A DNA stretch of 30,851 nucleotides from the NCBI RefSeq assembly GCF_004010195.1, contig NC_057754.1, positions 708,169 through 739,019 of the forward strand, written 5' to 3'. Made by a program: the position numbers and the translations under genes. Source of the stretch: Chiloscyllium plagiosum. Lineage: Eukaryota. Position 1 is the stretch's first letter, and each line of letters opens with the position of its first letter. Below are positions 150 to 30,549 of this stretch, one piece after another. The notes beneath the pieces are model-generated. The model was not told the origin of the DNA. It worked only from the letters and a program-made list of their open reading frames with translations, and searched no databases.

Positions 150-838
150 ATACTGTCCAGACTATGGTAACAGCAGAGGAACCTCAATCATTAGAAAGGT
201 TTAAAACTGATAAGGAGGAGGTATTGGATAAGCTGGTGCTGCTTAAAGTTATGAGGAACTAGGACCACATGAGATGCGGCAAAGGACATTGAAAGAAGTG
301 AGAATGGAAATTGCAGGAGCACTGGCAATGATCAGCATTTACTTACCATTCACTTAAACTTTGGTCATGGACAAACCTCTAGAAATTAATTTTCGATAGT
401 CACCTGTAAAAATGTGAGTTGATTCAGATGAGTCAGCATGGATTTGTATCTAAGATGGTGTCTAACTAATTTCCTGCGGATGTTTGAAGAGGTAACATAG
501 AGAATTATGACACACATACACACACACCAGACCTGTGTCATGGAATAAAAGGGTCAGTAGGAAGATGGATGCAACATTGGCTAAAGGATCACTAACAGAG
601 AGTAATGGTCAATGGCTATTTTTCAGGCTGAAGGAAGGTTTGTAGTGGTGTTACCTAGGGGTCAGTATTGTGACCTTTGGTTTTCCTGATAAATAGAAAT
701 CATCTAGATCTTGCTGTGCAGAGGACAATTTCAGCGTTTGTGGATGAAGCATTGACAGACATAAGAAGAGCAATGTAAACATACAAAGGGACATAGAAAA
801 GTTGTTGAGTAGGCAGAGAGATAGCAGATGAAGTTCAG
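150..838 (+). mobile_element. CR1-type LINE ORF2 (RT) remnant, 5' part; interrupted at 838 by a solo LTR
   Basis: Decayed translations LERFKTDKEEVLDKL, TLKEVRMEIAGALAMI, SQHGF and QRVMVNGYFSG*RKVCSGVT*GSVL match CR1 ORF2 motifs, with stops, frameshifts and deletions. It ends at cagatgaagttc (QMKF) and resumes at 2352 with aatgtggagaagtgtgaggtg (NVEKCEV). Confidence 0.9.
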
Positions 839-1006
839 TGTTATAGTGACCAGCCGAATCTTGTTGACTATGAGATCCTTGATTGGGGTTGTTAAACTGA
901 GCCAATCAGGAAAGCCTTCGCTGACTGTTATAACAGGGAATTTACAAAGAAAAAAAATATATAATCAGGAAAAGAAAGAAAAGAAAAAAATATATAACCC
1001 GAGGAA

Positions 1007-1358
1007 TGTCCCTGGAAAAGGAGCGTGCAGTGTCGACCAACACCCTCGAAGCTTTTAGGAAGAATGGGCATCGCAGGGTGTGGAGTGTTTTATCTCCCCC
1101 TCCAACTCTATTTTGATTTAATCCCTGTCCTTCCCTTCACTTTTTTTGATCACGTAGCATTGCCCTTTGTCGAGACGGGCACTGCTTGTCATTGGCCACT
1201 CGGGTGTTTCCTTTCCTTCTGGTGGTGGAATATAAATAAAGATTTGCGCACTTGTTCCTCACTGTGTCCTACATCGGTACACATACGGCGTGGGTACTGG
1301 GGGAAAATAACCACTACTGCTGTTAGGCAGAAGTAAAGAGAAAAAAAGAAAAAATAAA
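1007..1358 (+). mobile_element. 5'-truncated Tx1/L1-clade non-LTR retrotransposon 3' end (ORF2 C-terminus, 3'UTR, hairpin tail, A tail), copy 1
   Basis: Reads SLEKERAVSTNTLEAFR then, after a frameshift, QGVECFISPSNSILI*. It is homologous to 1665-1956, 13950-14445 and 22337-22544, has AATAAA in the UTR and an A-rich tail at 1336-1358. The clade assignment is from recall. Confidence 0.7.
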
Positions 1359-1474
1359 ATAAACAGGAGTGTCAGACATGCTGTTCATTCAGAGAGCTGG
1401 CTTTGAGGAACCTGGACCACTGTCAACTACTCTGAATGTGAAAATAAAGGGTGATTTGGCGACAGGAAAAAAAA
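1359..1474 (+). mobile_element. Polyadenylated TATA-to-polyA-site fragment of a different, related LTR subfamily
   Basis: ataaacaggagtgtcagac...aataaagggtgatttggcgacagg followed by A8. The 3' part matches the host LTR (aataaaaggtgacttggtgatgg, about 2302-2324) but the middle differs. It stops 18 nt after AATAAA and lacks the U5 end. Confidence 0.7.
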
Positions 1475-1664
1475 CCTATAACCATGGGATTTACAAAGAA
1501 AAAAATGTAACTAGGAAAATAAAAAAAAATGTAAAAATATAACCGGGGATTTACAAAGAAAATAACATATAAACAGGAGAAGAAAGAAAAGAGAAAAAAA
1601 ACATATATATATATATAGATATATACATACATACAGGGGATTTAGAATGTCCTCAGTTCTGGGA

Positions 1665-1975: not shown

Positions 1976-2045
1976 AAACCAGGAGATTTAGAATCTCAGT
2001 TTAAAAAAAAACAAAAAATAAATAACCGGGGGAAAAAAGAAAGTT

Positions 2046-2144
2046 TAATCAGGAGTTTAGGTTCTCCTCAGTTCAGGCAACTGACTCTGAGCTGACTGGC
2101 CACAAGAAAATAAAGGGTGACTTGGTGACAGAGGGGAAAAAAAA
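2046..2144 (+). mobile_element. Second polyadenylated LTR R-region fragment (host-like subfamily, internally deleted)
   Basis: taatcaggagtttaggttctcctcagttcaggcaactgactctgagctgactggccacaa...aataaagggtgacttggtgacagagggg plus an A run; it parallels 2220-2324 and ends about 20 nt after AATAAA. Confidence 0.7.
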
Positions 2145-2827
2145 CAAAATAACATATAACCGGGGGAGCTGTATGGCAATAGTGTAGGGGAAGCATAGGA
2201 ATTTGAAAAAGGAAAGAAATATAAACAGGGGATTTAGAATCTCCTCAGTTGAGGACTGACTCCAAGCTGGCCGGTCACAGTTCGTGTACTGTGCACAAGT
2301 AAATAAAAGGTGACTTGGTGATGGAATACTGGCCTCTATGCAGTTATTTCAAATGTGGAGAAGTGTGAGGTGATGCCGTTTGTTCGCAGGAACATTGGGC
2401 GACAGTATAAAATAAAGGGTATTATTCTGAAGGGTGTGCAAGAACAGCAAGACCTGGGTGTATTTGTACAAAGGTGAAAGATAGAGAGAGCTGTTAATGG
2501 ACTATACAGTATTCTAATCTTTATCAATAGGAGTATGGAGCAGGATGATGTCAGTGAACCTATATGAGACACTGGTTAGACCTCAGCTGGAGTATTATGT
2601 GTGGTTCTGTGTGCTGCATTATAAGAAAGAACACATTGGAGAGAGAGCAGGAAAGGTTTACAAGAGTGTTTTCAGCCTCAATCATAAGGAAACATTTGAG
2701 ACATTCGTACTGCTTTCTTTGCAGGGGGGATGGCTAAGGTGGCATTTGATGGGAGTTTTCAAAACCTCAGGGGTCGGTGCAGAAGTTGTTCCTGGATGTG
2801 CAATGATTGAGAATGAGTTTTGACATG

Positions 2828-3051
2828 AGCTGGAAATGTGTTGCTGGAAAAGCGCAGCAGGTCAGGCAGCATCCAGGGAACAGGAGAATCGACGTTTCGG
2901 GCATAAGCCCTTCTTCAGGATTTCCTGAAGAAGGGCTTATGCCCGAAACGTCGATTCTCCTGTTCCCTGGATGCTGCCTGACCTGCTGCGCTTTTCCAGC
3001 AACACATTTCCAGCTCTGATCTCCAGCATCTGCAGACCTCACTTTCTCCTC
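2828..3051. mobile_element. Penelope-like element (PLE) inverted pseudo-LTR insertion with 16-bp TSD
   Basis: Perfect 93-bp inverted repeat (2828-2920 / 2923-3015, 2-nt spacer) plus a 36-nt tail, flanked by the exact direct repeat aatgagttttgacatg (2812-2827, 3052-3067). It contains the hammerhead-type core typical of PLE pseudo-LTRs. Confidence 0.85.
2923..2958 (+). ncRNA. Minimal hammerhead ribozyme motif (mirror copy on the - strand at about 2885-2920)
   Basis: CUGAAGA (2925-2931), A, stem II GGGC-UUAU-GCCC (2933-2944), GAAAC (2945-2949), GUC (2950-2952), with a self-complementary ACGU in short stem III. Stem I is unclear because the inversion junction lies immediately upstream. Confidence 0.6.
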
Positions 3052-13947: not shown

Positions 13948-14445
13948 GCCATGCTGGCTATGAACAGATCCAGGTAGTGGGCTGTCAAGAGGGACGTACC
14001 TGCTGACTGCCTGCCCCTCTTGCACAGTTATATTTGCGCCCAGATATCCTTGGAGAGGGAGCACGCGGTGTTGATACCTTTAGAGAGATGTGGGCACCAT
14101 GGGGATACAGTGCTTTACTTCGCCCTCCAATTCCATTTTGATTTAGCCCCTTCCCTCTCTCCCTACCCTTTCCCTCACTTTTGATGGTTTGTATTACCCA
14201 TAATAGGCTTTGCTAGTAAATATTTGATTGGCTACATGGGTGATTTACTGGTGGTATTTCAAAGAAAAAAATAGTGGTGGGAAAGTCACTCAGTTGTGTG
14301 TGATAGCACTTCTGTGTAGAGAAAAATATTACCTATGTGCATCATTTGTCGCTAGAACTTGACTTTCCTTGTGTGTGTGCTGAATATGAGTGAGTACTTC
14401 TGTTGTGAGTACTTTCTGTGTATTTGCGAATAAACATTTTTACAA
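13948..14445 (+). mobile_element. Tx1/L1-clade 3' end with a different, longer 3'UTR
   Basis: LAMNRSR*WAVKRDVPADCLPLLHSYICAQISLEREHAV..DTFREMWAPWGIQCFTSPSNSILI* is homologous to the copies at 1007 and 1665; AATAAA at about 14429. Confidence 0.7.
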
Positions 14446-18744: not shown

Positions 18745-19660
18745 TTTAGTGATATTGGTTTGGCGAAAAATAGTGGCCGCTAGACACCAGGGCCTGTATC
18801 CACAGTGGGATCTTTTATGCCACCTTCCTGCATCCTCCCCTCACACAAGGGATCTCAGTTTAATGTTGCATCTGAAAATGGCACCTCCGACAGCGCAGCA
18901 TTCCCTCAGCACTGACCCTCCGACAGCATGGCACTCCCTCAATACTGACCCTCTGACAGTGCAATGCTTCCTCAGCACTGACCCTCCGACAGTGCGGTGC
19001 TCCCTCAGCACTGACCCTCCGACAGTGCGATGCTTCCTCAGCACTGACCCTCCGATAGTGCCCACTCCCTTAGTACTGATATTTTGACAATGTGGGGCTC
19101 CCTCAGCACTGACCCTCTGACAACACAGTGCTCCCTCTGTACTGACTCTCTGACAATACCACACTCCCTCAGTAGTGACCCTCAAACAGTGCAGCAATCC
19201 CTCAGCACTGACCCTCTGACAGTTTGGCACTTTCTCAGCACTAACCCTCTGACAGCGCAGCTCTATCTCAGCACTGACCCTCCAACAGTTTGGCATTCCC
19301 TCAGCGCTGACCCTCCAACAGTTTGGCATTCCCTCAGCACTGACTCTCCAACAGTTCATTGCTCCCTCAGTAATGACCCTCTGGCAGTGAAGTGCTCCCT
19401 CAGCACTGACCCTCCAATAGTGTGGTGCTCCCTCAGCACTGACCCTCCGACAGTGTGACACTCCCTGAGCACTGATCCTCCGACAGTGCAGCTCTCCCTC
19501 AGCACTGACCCTCCAACAGAGCAGCACTCCCTCACACTACCAGTGTTGCACTCGCTCAGTACAGGCCCTGTGATAATGCGGAGCTCCCTCAATGCTGGCA
19601 CTCGATAGTGGCCTAGATTACGCACTCCTGTCTCTGAAAAAGGAGTTGTGCCCCTACTAT
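18745..19660 (-). mobile_element. Deu-domain SINE (SacSINE1/AmnSINE1-like) with an internally expanded minisatellite
   Basis: tgggatcttttatgccacc...tcagtttaatgttgcatctgaaaatggcacctccgacagcgcagca...ccctcagcactg on the left and cctagatta...ctctg on the right match the recalled reverse Deu-domain consensus. Confidence 0.65.
18884..19605. repeat. 33-bp minisatellite (~21-22 units, CTCCCTCAGCACTGACCCTCCGACAGTGCAGCA)
   Basis: ctgaccctc recurs every 33 nt (18912, 18945, ...); this explains the periodic 11-aa ORFs on both strands. Confidence 0.95.
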
Positions 19661-20529: not shown

Positions 20530-20624
20530 GTGTACAAGCAAACATATATGTATACATGTATGTATGTATGTCTGTGTGTGGGTATACAGGTGTACACACT
20601 GGGTGAGCAGACTTCTCATTAAGC

Positions 20625-20880
20625 AATAACCCAATCACAGTATCCCTCACTCAATAATCCAATCACGGTGTCCCTGAGATAAAAACCCAATCACAGTGTC
20701 CCTCAGACAATAACCCAATCATTGTTCATCAAACAATCACAGTGTCCCTGAAATAAACCCAATCAAGTGTCTCTCAGACAATAACCCAATCACAATGTCC
20801 ATCACACAATCAGCCAATCATGGTGTCCTTGAGGTAATCATCCAATCACAATGTTCCTGAGGTAATCACCCAATCACAGT
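20625..20880. repeat. 28-bp CCAAT-containing minisatellite, left half (~9 units)
   Basis: ccaatcac at 20631, 20659, 20687...; unit ~CCAATCACAGTGTCCCTGAGATAATCAC. Confidence 0.9.
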
Positions 20881-22897
20881 TTCACAGCATGGAAACTCAT
20901 CTGCACCAAACCAGACATCCCAATCTGACCAAGTCCCATTTGCCATCACTTGGCCCATATCCCTCTAAACTCTTCCTTTTCATGTAGATACATCCCGTCT
21001 AGATACATTTTAAATGTTATAATTATACCAGCCTCCACCACTTCCTCTGGCAGCTCATTTCCAAACACGAACCACTGTCTGCATGAAGGTTTTACCCCTC
21101 AGATCCTTTTTAAATCTCTCCCCTCTCACCTTAAACCTCTGCCCTCTAGTTTTGAAATTCCCTACCCTGGAAGAAAAAAAACCTTGTCTGTTCACCCTAT
21201 CCATGCCCTTCATGATTTTTTAAACCTCAATATGGTCACCCCTCACTCTCTGACACTCCAGGGAAAATTTCCCAGTATATTCAGCCTCACCCTATAGTCC
21301 AAACCTTCCAGTCCCTTCAACATCCTTGTAAATCTTTTCTGAACCCTCTCAACTCTAACAGCGTCCTTCCCATAGAAGTCTGAGCAGAATTGAATACAGT
21401 ATTCCAAAGGTGGCATCACGTACAGTCACAACATGTTGTACTCAATGTTATAACAAATGAAGGCAAACGTGCCAAATACTTTCTTCACCACCCTGTCTGC
21501 CTGTGATTCCATTTTCAAGGAACTGTGCACCTGAAACTTTGGGTCTGTTTGTTCGACAACACTCCCCAGGACCCTACCATTAACTATATAAGTCCTGCCC
21601 TGATTTGCCTTTCCAAAATGCAACACCTCACACTTAACTAAATTAAACTCCATCTGCCATTCAGCCCATTGGCCCATCTGATCAAGGTCCCGTTGTACTC
21701 TGAGATAATCTTCACTGTCCACTACACCATGTGTCATCTGCAAACTTACTAACCGTACCTCCGATATTCACATTAAAATTATTTATCTAAATGACGAAAG
21801 CAGTGGACCCAGCATTGATCCTTATGGCATACCAGTGGTAGAGGCCTCCAGACCAAAACACAACACTCCACCATCACTCCCTGTCTCCTGCCTTCAAGTT
21901 AATGTTGTATCCAATTGATTAGCTCCCCCAATTTCCATGTGATCTAAAATTGCTAACCAACCTACCTTGTGAAATCTTGTCACTTTACTGAAATCCATAT
22001 AGACAATGTCTACCTCTCTGCTTTCATCAATCTTCTTTGCCACTTCTTCAAAAATCTCAATCAATTTAGTGAGACATGACTTCCGACACACCAAGCCATG
22101 TTGACTTTCCCTAATTAGTCCTTGCCTTTCCAAATATATATAAATCCTGTATGTCAGAATCCCGTCATCAACTTTGCCACCACTGATGTGAGGCTCACCG
22201 GTCTGTAGTTACCTGGCTTTTCCTTCCCACCTATCTTAAGTAATGCACCACGTTAGCCAACCTCAAGTCTTCCGGCACCTCGCCTGTGGCTATAGATTAT
22301 ACAGGTCCGGGGGAGTTATCTACCTTTATGCATTTTTTTTGTGTAGGACACAGTGACGAAACGAGTGCAGAAAACTTTATTCACTTTCCAGCACCAGGAA
22401 GAAAAAGCACCCAAGTAACCAGTGACAAGAAGTGTGTTTGTCTTTAGGAGAAATGCCTACATGATCGAAAAAGTGAAGGGAAGGATAGGGATTAAATCAA
22501 AATAGAATCGGAGGGAGAAATAAAACACTCCACACCCCGCGTCATTATGCATTTTAAGACCTCTAGCACCTCCCCTTCTGTAATGTGGAAACTTTTCAAA
22601 ATATTATTTATTTTCCCAAGTTCTCTAGCTTCCATGTCCTGCTCTACAATAAATGCTGACATGAAATACTCATTTAGTATCTCCCCCATCTCATGTGGTT
22701 CCATACATGGACAATCTTGCTAATCTCTAAGGGGCCCTGTTGTTTCCCTAGTTACTCTTTTGTCCTTAATGTATTTATTTTTGTCCTTAACTCTATTTGC
22801 TAAAGCTATTCCATGCCCTCTTTTTGCCCTCCTGATTTCCCTTTTTAGTACTGTATACTCCTACTGCCCTTATACTCATCTCAGGATTCACTCTCCC
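20881..22897 (-). mobile_element. 5'-truncated CR1 LINE (~1.8 kb) inserted into the 28-bp minisatellite; nested Tx1-like copy
   Basis: - strand ORFs read MGEILNEYFMSAF, LIRESQHGLVCRKSCLTKLIEIFEEV...VYMDFSK and QRDLDQMGQWAEWQMEFNLVKCEVLHFGK; the FADD motif is at tcatctgcaaa (about 21734). Confidence 0.95.
22337..22544 (-). mobile_element. Short Tx1/L1-clade 3' end with poly-A and 11-bp TSD, nested in CR1
   Basis: TSD ttatgcatttt at 22326-22336 and 22545-22555; encodes RGVECFISPSDSILI*. The UTR is homologous to 1120-1275 but ends at cactgtgtcctacac-A(n). Confidence 0.85.
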
Positions 22898-23131
22898 CCT
22901 GAGGTATTCAGCCAATCACACAGTCCCTGAGACACTTGCCCAATCACAGTGTTCCTGAGGCAATCGCATAATCAACGTGTTTATCACACAATAATCCAAC
23001 CATAGTGTCCCTTTGATAAACCCTCTAATAATCACCCATTCACAGTGTCCCTGAGATAATCACCCAATCACAATGTCCCTGAGATGATCACCAAATCACA
23101 GAGTCTCTGAGATGATGACCCATCAAATCAC
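22898..23131. repeat. 28-bp CCAAT-containing minisatellite, right half (~8 units)
   Basis: Same unit (ccaatcacagtgtccctgagataatcac) as 20625-20880. Confidence 0.9.
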
Positions 23132-25799: not shown

Positions 25800-26017
25800 A
25801 CTTCAAGAGACAACTTCTCTGACAGTGCAGCACTACCTTGGCACTGACCCTCTGACAGTCCCCATTTCCTCAGCACTGACCCTCTGACAGTGCCTGCTCC
25901 TTCAGCACTGACCCTCCAACACTGAGCTTCCTCAGCACTGATTTTCTGACAGTGCAACACTGTGCCAGTGCAGACCCTCTGATAGTGCAGCACTCTTTCA
26001 GCGCTGATCTCTGATAG
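25800..26017. repeat. Second, shorter array of the 33-bp Deu-SINE-derived minisatellite (~6 units)
   Basis: ctcagcactgaccctctgacagtg units like those at 18884-19605. Confidence 0.85.
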
Positions 26018-26214
26018 TTTGGTAGTAAGAGTGAGAGAGATTCCTGGTCTGTGTGATAGAAAGAACATAGGGGTCTGTGACTTGACTGTCCATAGCTCCA
26101 GTTGAAAAGTGTAAGCTGCGACAGAGTCTGGACTGCGGGGTGAGTGTCCAGACACTGTTTCTGGAACAGACCGGGGCTATCAGTGGTTGCACTTTAATGC
26201 CTTGCATTAACAGA

Positions 26215-26394
26215 ATTTAAAATCATACAACACCAGGTTTTAGTCCAACAGGTTTATTTGGAAGCACTAGCGTTTGGAGCACTGCTCCTTCATCAGGTTG
26301 CAGCGTGCTTCCAATTAAACCTGTTGGACTATAACCTGGTGTTGTGTGATTTTTAACTTTGTCCACACCAGTCCAACACTGGCAGCTCCACATC
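26215..26394. mobile_element. Penelope-like inverted pseudo-LTR insertion, second family, 8-bp TSD
   Basis: Inverted arms aaaatcatacaacaccagg...ggaagcac / gtgcttcc...cctggtgttgtgtgatttt; TSD ttaacaga (26207-26214, 26395-26402); - strand ctgatga-a-ggagc-agt-gctcc hammerhead remnant at about 26270-26296. Confidence 0.8.
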
Positions 26395-27527: not shown

Positions 27528-27534
27528 CTTTAAT

Positions 27535-27743
27535 GTGGAGGTTCTGGTGTTGGACTGGGGTGGACAAAGTTAAAAATCACACAACATCAAGTTATAGTCC
27601 AACAGGTTTATTTGGAAGTACAAGCTGTTGGAGCACTGCTCCTTCATCAGGTAGCAGCCTGACCTTGAAGGAGCAACACTCTGAAAGCTAGTGCTTCCAA
27701 GTAAACCTGATGGACGTTAACCTGGTGCTGTGTGATTTTTAAC
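27535..27743. mobile_element. Penelope-like inverted pseudo-LTR insertion (same family as 26215-26394, opposite orientation)
   Basis: Arms agttaaaaatcacacaac...ccttcatcagg / cctgac..gaaggagc...gtgtgatttttaact; imperfect 14-bp TSD taagtaactttaat (27521-27534) / taattaattttaat (27744-27757). Confidence 0.8.
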
Positions 27744-28794
27744 TAATTAATTTTAATCATTGGATTTTGCCTGTGTCCTGTTCACTTGGGTCCATTTCTG
27801 TTAATATTTGTAAAACACAGTGCATTTAAAAGGGTTAATATTGTGGTTAAAGGTCAAATAAAGTCACTTAGTTTTAAGTTTTTTAAAAACTTTGCACAGA
27901 ACCGCAACACCTTGAAATGGAGAAAGGTGAGTTAAACCCAATTCCCTTGTCTTTAGATTTGTAAACTAGAAGTGCCAACTGCAGGAAAGAAGATAGAGGA
28001 CTGTGCGACAGATGTCCTACTTTCCTGGGAATTTCCTGGGGCAGTGTCGCTGGATTATTTGACTCAAAAGTCAGAGACTTCACACAGTCCCCACCCTCGG
28101 GGAAAGATTTTGAATCCTGTACCTGTTGTTTCACAATGACTGTCTATACCTCCTCCAGGGGTATATGTTGTACTTGGGGGAGGTGCTGTCGTCATTCTGA
28201 AACCCCAGGGGCTGTCACAATCTGTTAAAGGTCAGTGCCCACTCGACATTTCTCTCTCATTCTCACCTGTTCAGAATGTGGGTGAGTAGAGTTACATAGT
28301 TCTGTTCCCCACGCCACACCCAGGTAAAGCTCCAAGTCTAGATAATCTCTCCTGATGTCTTTGTATGATATGGGCTCACTGTGTCCTGTCCTCCTGATTT
28401 AGTGAGATTCAGTCCCATTTTCACTCAGCAGTCTGGGTTAATGTGCTCTCACTGGCATGTCTCATCTCTCCATTGATGTTTAAGATCATAAACTGAGGTG
28501 AGGTTAACTATCAGCTCATGATACCTGAGGATTCAGACGAGAAAGATCCCCTTTCCATTAATTTCACTGACTGCTTTCCTCCTGTTCATTCTCAGGACGT
28601 GGGGGTCACTGATAGAGGCTGCTGTTTATTGGCCAGTCCCAGTCATCCAGCCAGTGCACAAAGTATAATGGATTCAGAATGGACAGGGCTGAGTCAGCTG
28701 CATCAACTTGGGAATGGAGTCACCTTCACGCCCAGACTGAGAAAGGGAGGCAGGTTTCCATTGGAAACTACGTATCAACATTCAGACATGTGAA

Positions 28795-28945: not shown

Positions 28946-29219
28946 GCTTTGAGGTCATGTGCACTCAAATGAGTGCAGTGAAACGTTTGCAATGTTGCCA
29001 CTTACAGCACTATCAAAGGTATAAGATACCTAGGTACAGATACTTAAGAATTTGGTACAGAATTGAAACAATAATAAATAAATGTCTGACACAAAAATCA
29101 AAAGTTCTAAAAAGTACTCGGATTACAGCCCTTTTCACCCCAGCCCATGCCAGCACCTAGCCTCCAGATCGCCCTGGGCCAAGTCTTCAGACCACAATGG
29201 CCTTCAAAACCCGAGGCCA

Positions 29220-30155
29220 TACCTCCAGTCCGCAAGAGACTCACCTCCCCATGACATCCCCCAGTATGGGCCTAGCCTCCCCATGACATGCTCCAGTCTG
29301 GGCCTAGCCTGCCCATGACATCCCCCCCTCTGGGCCTAGCCTCCCCATGACATCCTCCAGTCTGGGCCTAACCTCCCCATGACGTCCCCCAGTTTGAGCC
29401 TAGCCTCCCCATGACATCCTCCAGTCCAGGCCTAGCCTCCCCATGACATCCTCCAGTCTGGGCCTAGCCTCCCCATGACATCCCCCAGTTTGGGCCTAGC
29501 CTCCCCATGACATCCCCCAGTCTGGGCGTAGCCTCCCCCATGACATCCTCCAGTCTGGGCCTAGCCTGCCCATGACATCCTCCAGTCCAGGCCTAGCCTG
29601 CCCATGACATCCCCCAGTCTGGGCCTAGCCTCCCCATGACATCCTCCAGTCTGGGCCTAGCCTCCCCATGACATCCTCCAGACCAGGCCTAGCCTCCCCA
29701 TGACATCCTCCAGTCTGGGCCTAGCCTCCCCATGACATCCTCCAGTCCGGGCCTAGCCTCCCCATGACATCCTCCAGTCTGGGCCTAGCCTGCCCATGAC
29801 ATCCTCCAGTCCAGGCCTAGCCTGCCCATGACATCCTCCAGTCCAGGCTTAGCCTCCCCATGACATCCTCCAGTCCAGGACTCCCCTCACCATGACATCC
29901 CCCAGTCTGGGCCTAGCCTGCCCATGACATCCTCCAGTCTGGGCCTAGCCTCCCCATGACGTCCTCCAGTCCAGGCCTTGCCTCCCCATGACATCCTCTA
30001 GTCTGGGCCTAGCCTGCCCAAGACATCCTCCAGTCTGGGCCTAGCCTCCTCATGACATCCTCCAGTCCAGGACTCCCCTCACCATGACATCCCCCAGTCT
30101 GGGCCTTGACTCCCCATGGCATCCTCCAGTCCAGGACTTGCTTCTCCATGACATC
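29220..30155. repeat. Homogeneous 32-bp minisatellite (~29 units, CTCCCCATGACATCCTCCAGTCTGGGCCTAGC)
   Basis: atgac at 29251, 29283, 29315... (period 32), with very few variant positions. Confidence 0.97.
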
Positions 30156-30549
30156 AGGCAGTTCCTGGTTTGCGAAGGTGTCCTGTTCTGGAGTCCGTTT
30201 GTAAGTTGATTTGTATGCAAGTCAACACACAATGCAGGACAATATTGAGCAGCTATTTCTCAGGAACATTTGAATGTCAAGTCCTTGAATCAGACCCCTG
30301 TGTAGGATCGCATTCGTAAGGACAAGCGCTTGTATGCTGGACATTGGTAAATTGGAGACCACCTATAATAATAAAAGTACTGAACCATTCCACTATCACC
30401 ACCACTCTATGGGGAAGAGAATTTCACAGAGTTTTTGTTTCTGTCTTAAACGGGATAGTGCTTATTTTTTAACCATCTCCCCAAGCTTCATCTCTCCCAC
30501 ATTGGGAAGCATCCTTGCCATGGCTCCTGGAAAATCACTCTGGATCTTA

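What the first reader, a model, noticed from the sequence alone, without database searches (positions are those of the whole stretch)
1359..1474. Polyadenylated R-region of a different LTR subfamily captured inside the array (3' transduction footprint)
Seen: right after Tx1-like copy 1 and its A tail comes a TATA...AATAAA segment that shares the host LTR's polyA-signal region but has a different middle (gtgtcagacatgctgttcattcagagagctggctttgagg). It ends 18 nt after AATAAA in an A8 run and has no U5. Inference: the donor element sat in the TATA box of another LTR elsewhere, read through, used that LTR's polyA signal, and carried the piece here. This would be independent evidence that the same site is hit at other loci and that the parasite borrows the LTR's 3'-processing signal.
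Basis: partly seen in the sequence, partly recalled or inferred. Interest (0 to 1): 0.7.

Follow-up and report, generated by a model that had tools for sequence, protein, structure and literature searches.

The report
LTR fragment carried by a LINE
A short A-tailed piece of a related jumping gene's end-repeat sits behind a LINE copy inside a stack of insertions, most likely dragged there when the LINE's transcript ran past its own end, a well-known kind of accident that here hints at which repeats the LINE lands in.

Summary
Bases 1359-1466 run from a TATA-like target copy to 18 nt past AATAAA, then A8, with no U5. The piece is a diverged copy of a multi-copy sister LTR subfamily that carries a U5 elsewhere, so it is not a local duplication. 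The LINE-to-segment junction also occurs in a second species. It is therefore an RNA-derived LTR R region (about 0.85). Whether it came as a 3' transduction with LINE copy 1 (0.55) or as a separately retroposed LTR RNA (0.27) is open: no donor locus could be sought (no genome held), the flank test did not discriminate, and RNA reads did not fix the cleavage site. Routine borrowing of the LTR signal is not supported: 2 of 13 inserted units end there, and 222 RNA reads end in A's at the LINE's own end. A second R piece at 2044-2152 repeats the pattern. The Tx1 label was not confirmed here. It is a new case of known 3' transduction.

The parts
839..928 (+). Host solo LTR, U3 half (TG start, CCAAT-like box near 901-905)
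   Evidence: Sequence. Contigs join 910-925 to 2218-2234, skipping the array, in both DNA runs (table 5).
929..990 (+). Block A: two target copies, each with an A-rich tail; repeated at 1477-1537 and 1538-1601
   Evidence: A vs C 60 of 69, A vs B 54 of 66, B vs C 48 of 60 aligned columns; all three scores above the maximum of 500 shuffles.
991..1358 (+).
   Evidence: 237 of 298 columns identical to copy 2; high-copy in DNA runs. Clade not confirmed.
1359..1369 (+). Target copy heading the segment (TAAACAGGAG)
   Evidence: same form as the TATA context that 158 and 94 contigs show behind U3 (loose ends at 910).
1370..1442 (+). R-region middle of a sister LTR subfamily
   Evidence: Multi-copy: 63 and 42 contigs share another letter at 1420. 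Matches 23 of 30 (hand count) the loose-end consensus of 110 contigs placed at the host AATAAA-U5; the host matches 13 of 30.
1443..1466 (+). AATAAA and 18 nt to the inferred cleavage site
1467..1474 (+). A8, remnant poly(A) tail, in place of U5
   Evidence: Depth falls from 534.5/939.3 at 1460 to 8.68/10.3 at 1485, so the junction is locus-specific.
1477..1601 (+). Blocks B and C: four target copies with A-rich tails; the copy at 1477 is the outer 3' flank of LINE copy 1 plus segment
1602..1956 (+). TA-expanded target copy and 5'-truncated LINE copy 2, not followed by a full R region
   Evidence: 222 RNA reads of the family end in A's at 1956.
2044..2152 (+). Second A-tailed R piece, host-like subfamily, ending in the same register (A8 starts 22 nt after AATAAA), no U5
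   Evidence: 72 of 86 columns identical to the host R with an 18-nt gap. Outer flanks match 12 of 13; its own head matches the left flank 7 of 13.
2153..2219 (+). Target copy, short LINE-like 3' tip and A-rich tail
   Evidence: Aligns with the ends of LINE copies 1 and 2; no significance test run.
2220..2350 (+). Host LTR from TATA through R, AATAAA (2302-2307) and U5 to the CA end
   Evidence: 602 and 462 contigs diverge behind 2351.

Best explanation
A single 3' transduction. A donor LINE sat, in sense orientation, at the TATA site of a sister-subfamily LTR elsewhere in the genome. One transcript ran through the donor's A tail and the duplicated target and was cleaved at that LTR's AATAAA about 110 nt further on. 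The LINE's enzyme nicked the same kind of target here, copied from the new poly(A) tail through the R region and the old tail into the LINE, and stopped about 360 nt in, leaving 991-1474 as one insert. Shown: the anatomy, the parent subfamily, the locus-specific junction, presence in two species. Inferred: the cleavage site, the single-RNA origin, the donor, the enzyme. It is an occasional by-product of where the LINE sits, not its normal way of ending.
For: Order LINE - A tail - target - foreign R - A tail, with no U3 and no U5. Foreign middle with a multi-copy parent that has U5. The segment leaves the host sequence about 10 nt after the TATA start, upstream of where a TATA-driven transcript would begin (established knowledge: about 25-30 nt downstream), so the RNA began further upstream. 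End 18 nt past AATAAA, and a second R piece ends in the same register. The second piece has an A tract and a different target form inside matching outer flanks (12 of 13 vs 7 of 13), as a 5'-truncated transduction would. A tails join this target at other loci (34 contigs). LINE copy 1's last signal-like word reads AATAAC, and 255 of 269 RNA reads on the main strand have G at the matching place of copy 2, so the LINE's distal signal looks non-canonical (inference).
Against: No donor locus seen. The flank test for this segment does not discriminate (11, 10 and 10 matches of 15). The array stacks independent insertions at one site, so adjacency to a LINE copy can be chance (2-3 of 13 units have a LINE body). 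RNA gave no end peak (table 6), and the estimated mean end of the 29 reads at 1460 lies anywhere from 1466 to 1477, against 1470-1471 for DNA contigs. The second R piece may be a long local duplication. The LINE 3'UTR has a canonical AATAAA of its own near 1234 and 1857.
Confidence: 0.55

Rival explanations
1. Two separate events. An RNA ending at a sister LTR's poly(A) site (the U3-R end of an LTR-retrotransposon RNA, or any read-through) was retroposed in trans by the LINE's enzymes into the target. Its cDNA joined at the shared TATA motif by homology, giving a seamless start, and LINE copy 1 inserted in front of it later. This is the HERV-W processed-pseudogene route.
For: The same anatomy is predicted. 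RNA of the segment's family is present in sense orientation (29 reads, 15 starts at 1460). Independent stacking at the site is the rule here (13 units). LINEs retropose LTR-element RNAs ending in U3-R plus poly(A) (PMC5016936 passages), and Tx1-Mar probably mobilises SINEU in trans into its own target (PMC4494074).
Against: Needs truncation exactly at the TATA and a LINE body landing directly in front. It fits the second R piece poorly, whose left flank matches the outer right flank and not its own head.
Confidence: 0.27
2. DNA-level transfer: ectopic recombination or gene conversion between arrays in two LTR subfamilies, using the shared A tracts and target motifs, with the A8 being a later tail-only insertion or a slippage tract.
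For: The array shows DNA-level repetition (three copies of a 60-nt block), and A runs are common (9 runs of A7+ in 1292 nt).
Against: Does not explain why U5 is lost 18 nt past AATAAA (chance about 7.5% per piece, and both pieces do it). No target motif lies at the 1466 break.
Confidence: 0.1
3. The A-tailed R piece is a small non-autonomous retroposon of its own (a composite LINE-tail/LTR-R family or SINE-like unit) that the LINE mobilises into the same target.
For: Two R pieces in one array; SVA and SINEU give precedents.
Against: The two pieces come from different subfamilies (69 of 87 columns with several gaps). Contigs with the segment-type middle were placed at the host's AATAAA-U5. How many contigs carry A's instead of U5 at 1467 was not shown.
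Confidence: 0.08

Closest known systems
3' transduction by L1 and SVA (PMC12593883 and PMC3287187, passages; PMC7265360, passages citing Moran 1999 and Pickeral 2000)
   Same: Element, first A tail, downstream flank, second A tail just past a downstream AATAAA. Short transductions that keep the parent's target duplication and orphan forms are described.
   Different: Here the flank is the element's own target, so the cargo rebuilds a target site plus an LTR poly(A) signal inside a tandem array; non-mammalian vertebrate; no donor mapped.
Tx1-8_Crp and Tx1-4_AMi; Tx1-Mar with SINEU (Kojima 2015, PMC4494074; passages and section 14 read, supplement not available)
   Same: Tx1-clade LINEs preferring specific LTR retrotransposons; tandem insertions sandwiching a target duplication; trans-mobilised passengers at the same target.
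   Different: The passages read give no position within the LTR and no 3' transduction of LTR sequence. The clade of the LINE here was not confirmed.
R1Bm and R7Ag read-through (as cited in PMC7265360, passages; the R1Bm paper itself was not held)
   Same: Target-specific LINEs whose RNA reads into the downstream target; 3' transduction seen; R1Bm needs downstream target sequence for accurate priming.
   Different: Insect elements, shown in assays; R1Bm's target is 28S rDNA, not an LTR.
HERV-W processed pseudogenes (PMC5016936, passages)
   Same: LINE-made copies of LTR-element RNA that end in R, lack U5 and carry poly(A).
   Different: Those keep U3 and internal sequence and insert at TT/AAAA sites; this piece starts at the TATA and lies in a specific target.

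Membership tests
LINE-mediated 3' transduction | LINE 3' end with its own A tail, followed by foreign flank and a second A tail | tested here: met
LINE-mediated 3' transduction | Poly(A) signal 10-30 nt before the second tail | tested here: met
   AATAAA at 1443-1448, A8 18 nt later.
LINE-mediated 3' transduction | One target-site duplication enclosing LINE and cargo together | tested here: inconclusive
   Outer flanks share TATAACC exactly, but over 15 nt the matches are 11 (outer pair) vs 10 and 10.
LINE-mediated 3' transduction | Source locus with the LINE directly upstream of the same flank | not testable with these tools
   No genome held; no such joint among the 15 joints shown of 727.
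LTR R region of a sister subfamily | Multi-copy, and continuing into U5 in other copies | tested here: met
   63 and 42 contigs share a variant at 1420; 110 contigs placed at the host AATAAA-U5 carry a segment-like middle, 23 of 30 by hand. That they run through U5 is inferred from where they were placed.
LTR R region of a sister subfamily | Colinear with a U3 upstream of the TATA | tested here: inconclusive
   U3 runs into the same TATA form in 158 and 94 contigs, but no U3-to-segment joint was among the rows shown.
LTR R region of a sister subfamily | Break equals the poly(A) site used in RNA | tested here: inconclusive
   29 reads at 1460, none at 1485, no end peak; mean end 1466-1477.
Tx1 clade (the carrier LINE) | APE endonuclease and RT phylogeny within Tx1 | not testable with these tools
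Only about 30-50 C-terminal codons are in the window; searches with 28-41 aa pieces gave no informative hit.
Tx1 clade (the carrier LINE) | Sequence-specific insertion with target duplication and A-rich tail | tested here: met
   14 hand-placed target copies in 929-2230; no match to the 10-mer with at most 1 mismatch elsewhere in the window; A tail joined to the target in 34 contigs.
   Absent behind copy 2 and the copy at 22341-22541; 222 RNA reads end in A's at 1956.

The most novel reading that the evidence does not exclude
The LINE is a parasite of the LTR's whole expression cassette. Inserting in sense at the TATA box leaves a TATA copy in front as promoter and the LTR's R region with AATAAA behind as terminator. 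Read-through RNA would be common, but its internal A tract plus target copy would pair with the nicked target and prime copying there, so the R part is usually dropped and survives only in rare pieces such as 1359-1474 and 2044-2152. These pieces would then record hops between LTR subfamilies.
Probability: 0.17. Interest if true: 0.62.

Novelty: new member of a known kind. Interest (0 to 1): 0.3.

Why it matters
If it is a transduction, the piece is a tag: it shows that the LINE was active from inside a second LTR subfamily, which defines its target range by the shared TATA motif and lets donor-offspring links be traced. It also gives a direct test of whether LTR-homing LINEs use the host LTR's promoter and terminator. 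As a mechanism it is known; as one old locus without a mapped donor it is a supporting detail to the LTR-targeting story that this scan has already reported several times.

Tried and rejected
Whole-genome search: no genome held. Clade of the LINE: 1 candidate, none scoring; 1 hit, a repetitive 356-aa protein with no LINE domain; no Pfam family for the two window pieces; no Atlas hit. Rfam on 700-2500: 1 match, a TA-repeat hit to mir-297 far below its cut-off. No RNA holder was listed by index; run X22 laid 0 reads; neither is evidence. RNA test of the cleavage site: inconclusive. Rejected: assembly artefact (contigs of two organisms span the junctions); local target duplication for the segment (middle differs from the host); fixed LINE 3'UTR; a short transcript started at the parent LTR's own TATA (foreign sequence begins upstream of the expected start). 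An idea that AGGAG versus AGGGG marks foreign versus local target copies was dropped, because the two flanks of LINE copy 2 differ in just this way. Literature: searches listed no title or abstract on 3' transduction of an LTR R region by a Tx1 element; the library lacks most subscription papers, and the supplement of PMC4494074, which shows the LTR insertion sites, could not be read.

Full report
Setting. The window is repeat-rich animal DNA with no whole genome held. 'Shark or ray' comes from an earlier scan note and my recall of its repeats, not from a test. A short solo LTR (839-2350 without its inserts) interrupts a decayed LINE whose frame runs on across the break (the CR1-type label is recalled). 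Contigs from two DNA runs join 910-925 to 2218-2234, which is the uninterrupted LTR, and 602 and 462 contigs diverge behind 2351, which fixes its end. Between the halves I placed by hand 14 copies of a TATAAACAGG-like target, 13 of them heading an inserted unit. A search for the 10-mer with at most one mismatch found 4 matches, all in the array. Two units hold about 300-360 nt of a LINE 3' end (237 of 298 columns alike) and one holds a short tip of it.

The observation. Unit 4 (1359-1476) follows LINE copy 1's A-rich tail. It has a target copy, a 73-nt middle, AATAAA at 1443-1448, 18 nt, and A8. It aligns with the host's TATA-to-signal stretch at 71 of 100 columns, above all 500 shuffles. The middles alone score 5.5 against -10.1 +/- 6.4 with a shuffle maximum of 13.5, so they are barely alike. 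There is no U5.

Where the piece comes from. I laid one RNA run pair and two DNA contig sets on 830-2360 at 80% likeness (tables show only the best rows: 15 of 727 joints, 18 of 1840 loose ends, 16 of 23523 pieces). The segment is multi-copy: 63 and 42 contigs share another letter at 1420, and summed depth at 1460 is 534.5 and 939.3, against 8.68 and 10.3 at 1485. In organism B, 110 contigs placed at the host's AATAAA-U5 carry upstream letters that match 1410-1439 at 23 of 30 places in register and the host at 13 of 30 (hand counts). Three of the seven differences (1420, 1427, 1435) are majority variants in table 3. So a sister LTR subfamily with this middle and, by inference from placement, a U5 exists. 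U3-bearing contigs (158 and 94) run into the same TATA form that heads the segment, but a direct U3-to-segment joint was not among the rows shown. The A8 junction is locus-specific and real: single contigs span 1369-1576 in organism A and 1219-1430 and 1404-1718 in organism B with few differences, so the structure predates the split of the two.

How it got here. An LTR piece that lacks U5 and ends in A's 18 nt past AATAAA is what an RNA ending at the LTR poly(A) site gives. Chance is not negligible in so A-rich an array (95 of 1267 positions have an A7+ run 15-25 nt downstream), but a second R piece at 2044-2152 ends in the same register. The segment leaves the host sequence about 10 nt after the TATA start, upstream of a TATA-driven start site (established knowledge), so the RNA began further upstream: in a LINE sitting at that TATA (transduction) or in U3 (an LTR RNA retroposed in trans and joined by homology at the shared motif). 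I tried to separate these by asking whether one duplication encloses LINE and segment. The outer flanks share TATAACC exactly, but over 15 nt the matches are 11 against 10 and 10, which decides nothing. For the second R piece the outer flanks match at 12 of 13 and the inner target at 7 of 13, with an A tract inside, as a transduction cut off in the donor's tail would look. That piece is 72 of 86 like the host, however, and could be a long local duplication; a 60-nt block occurs three times in the array. I put a single transduction at 0.55, trans-retroposition at 0.27, DNA-level transfer at 0.10 and a small retroposon family at 0.08.

Does the LINE borrow the LTR signal? Occasionally at most, on this evidence. 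Two of 13 units end at an LTR signal. Copy 1 has its own tail, the copy at 22341-22541 ends in A8 after its own AATAAA, and 222 reads of run X21 (1459 laid, about 2% of the run read, nearly all under 95% alike, so from other copies) end in A's at 1956, in sense orientation. These may be primed on genomic A tails, so they do not prove where the LINE's RNA is cleaved. In favour of leakiness, the last signal-like word is non-canonical in copy 1 and in 255 of 269 reads at 1927. For the segment's family, 29 reads from 15 starts cover 1460 and none covers 1485, but no end peak was listed and the mean end works out at 1466-1477 against 1470-1471 for DNA. The cleavage site is therefore unconfirmed. 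Run X22 laid nothing. That other loci are hit at this site is shown directly by 34 contigs in which an A tail joins the target.

Carrier. The window holds only the last 30-50 codons of ORF2, broken in copy 1. Searches with these pieces were uninformative, so 'Tx1' is untested here; site-specific stacking with A tails is shown.

Known systems. 3' transduction by bypass of the element's own signal is standard for L1 and SVA, including short forms that keep the parent's target duplication (PMC12593883 and PMC3287187, passages). It is reported for the target-specific R1Bm and R7Ag (PMC7265360, passages; the R1Bm paper itself not seen). Crocodilian Tx1-8_Crp and Tx1-4_AMi prefer certain LTR retrotransposons, and tandem insertions around a duplication are described (PMC4494074, passages and section 14; its supplement may give positions and could not be read). 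HERV-W processed pseudogenes are the precedent for the main rival (PMC5016936, passages). The searches listed nothing on transduction of an LTR R region by a Tx1 element; these are listings from an incomplete library. Earlier notes of this scan report the TATA-site targeting at many loci of this genome; look-ups for the transduced piece found none. The notes are unchecked leads.

Verdict. A real, old, RNA-derived LTR R fragment from a sister subfamily, probably a 3' transduction. The mechanism is known, the donor is unmapped, and routine borrowing of the LTR signal is not supported. New member of a known kind; interest 0.3. The boldest open reading, a LINE that uses the LTR as both promoter and terminator, has probability about 0.17.

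Noticed in passing
window 2044-2152: Second A-tailed, U5-less R piece, host-like subfamily, same end register, matching outer flanks; orphan transduction or long local duplication.
   Followed up: partly
window 929-990, 1477-1537, 1538-1601: A 60-nt block of two target-plus-tail units occurs three times, so part of the array grew by long duplications and the count of 13 units overstates independent insertions.
   Followed up: partly
window 22341-22541 (minus) and about 13978-14171 (plus): Two further pieces of related LINEs lie outside any TATA target; the minus-strand one ends in A8 after the proximal AATAAA, about 80 nt short of the array copies, so the family has two 3' end forms and not all relatives are site-specific.
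   Followed up: partly
window 1499-1557: 16 RNA reads from 4 starts align here with A in place of T at 1538 and 1540, as if reading from an A tail into a target copy; too few and too ambiguous to use.
   Followed up: no
window 2827-3016: Perfect inverted repeat with 94-nt arms 2 nt apart; looks like a young palindromic mobile element.
   Followed up: no
window 26210-26393 and 27533-27744: Related inverted-repeat elements with 58-89 nt arms, MITE-like.
   Followed up: no
window 29119-30283, 18833-19553, 20596-20909 and 22877-23131: Tandem arrays with periods of 32, 33 and 28 nt; the 33-nt unit recurs near 25817-26007.
   Followed up: no
window 832-845 and 2345-2356: The LTR's own target duplication is unclear: a 4-nt repeat with one mismatch fits only if two bases were lost at the left end.
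   Followed up: partly
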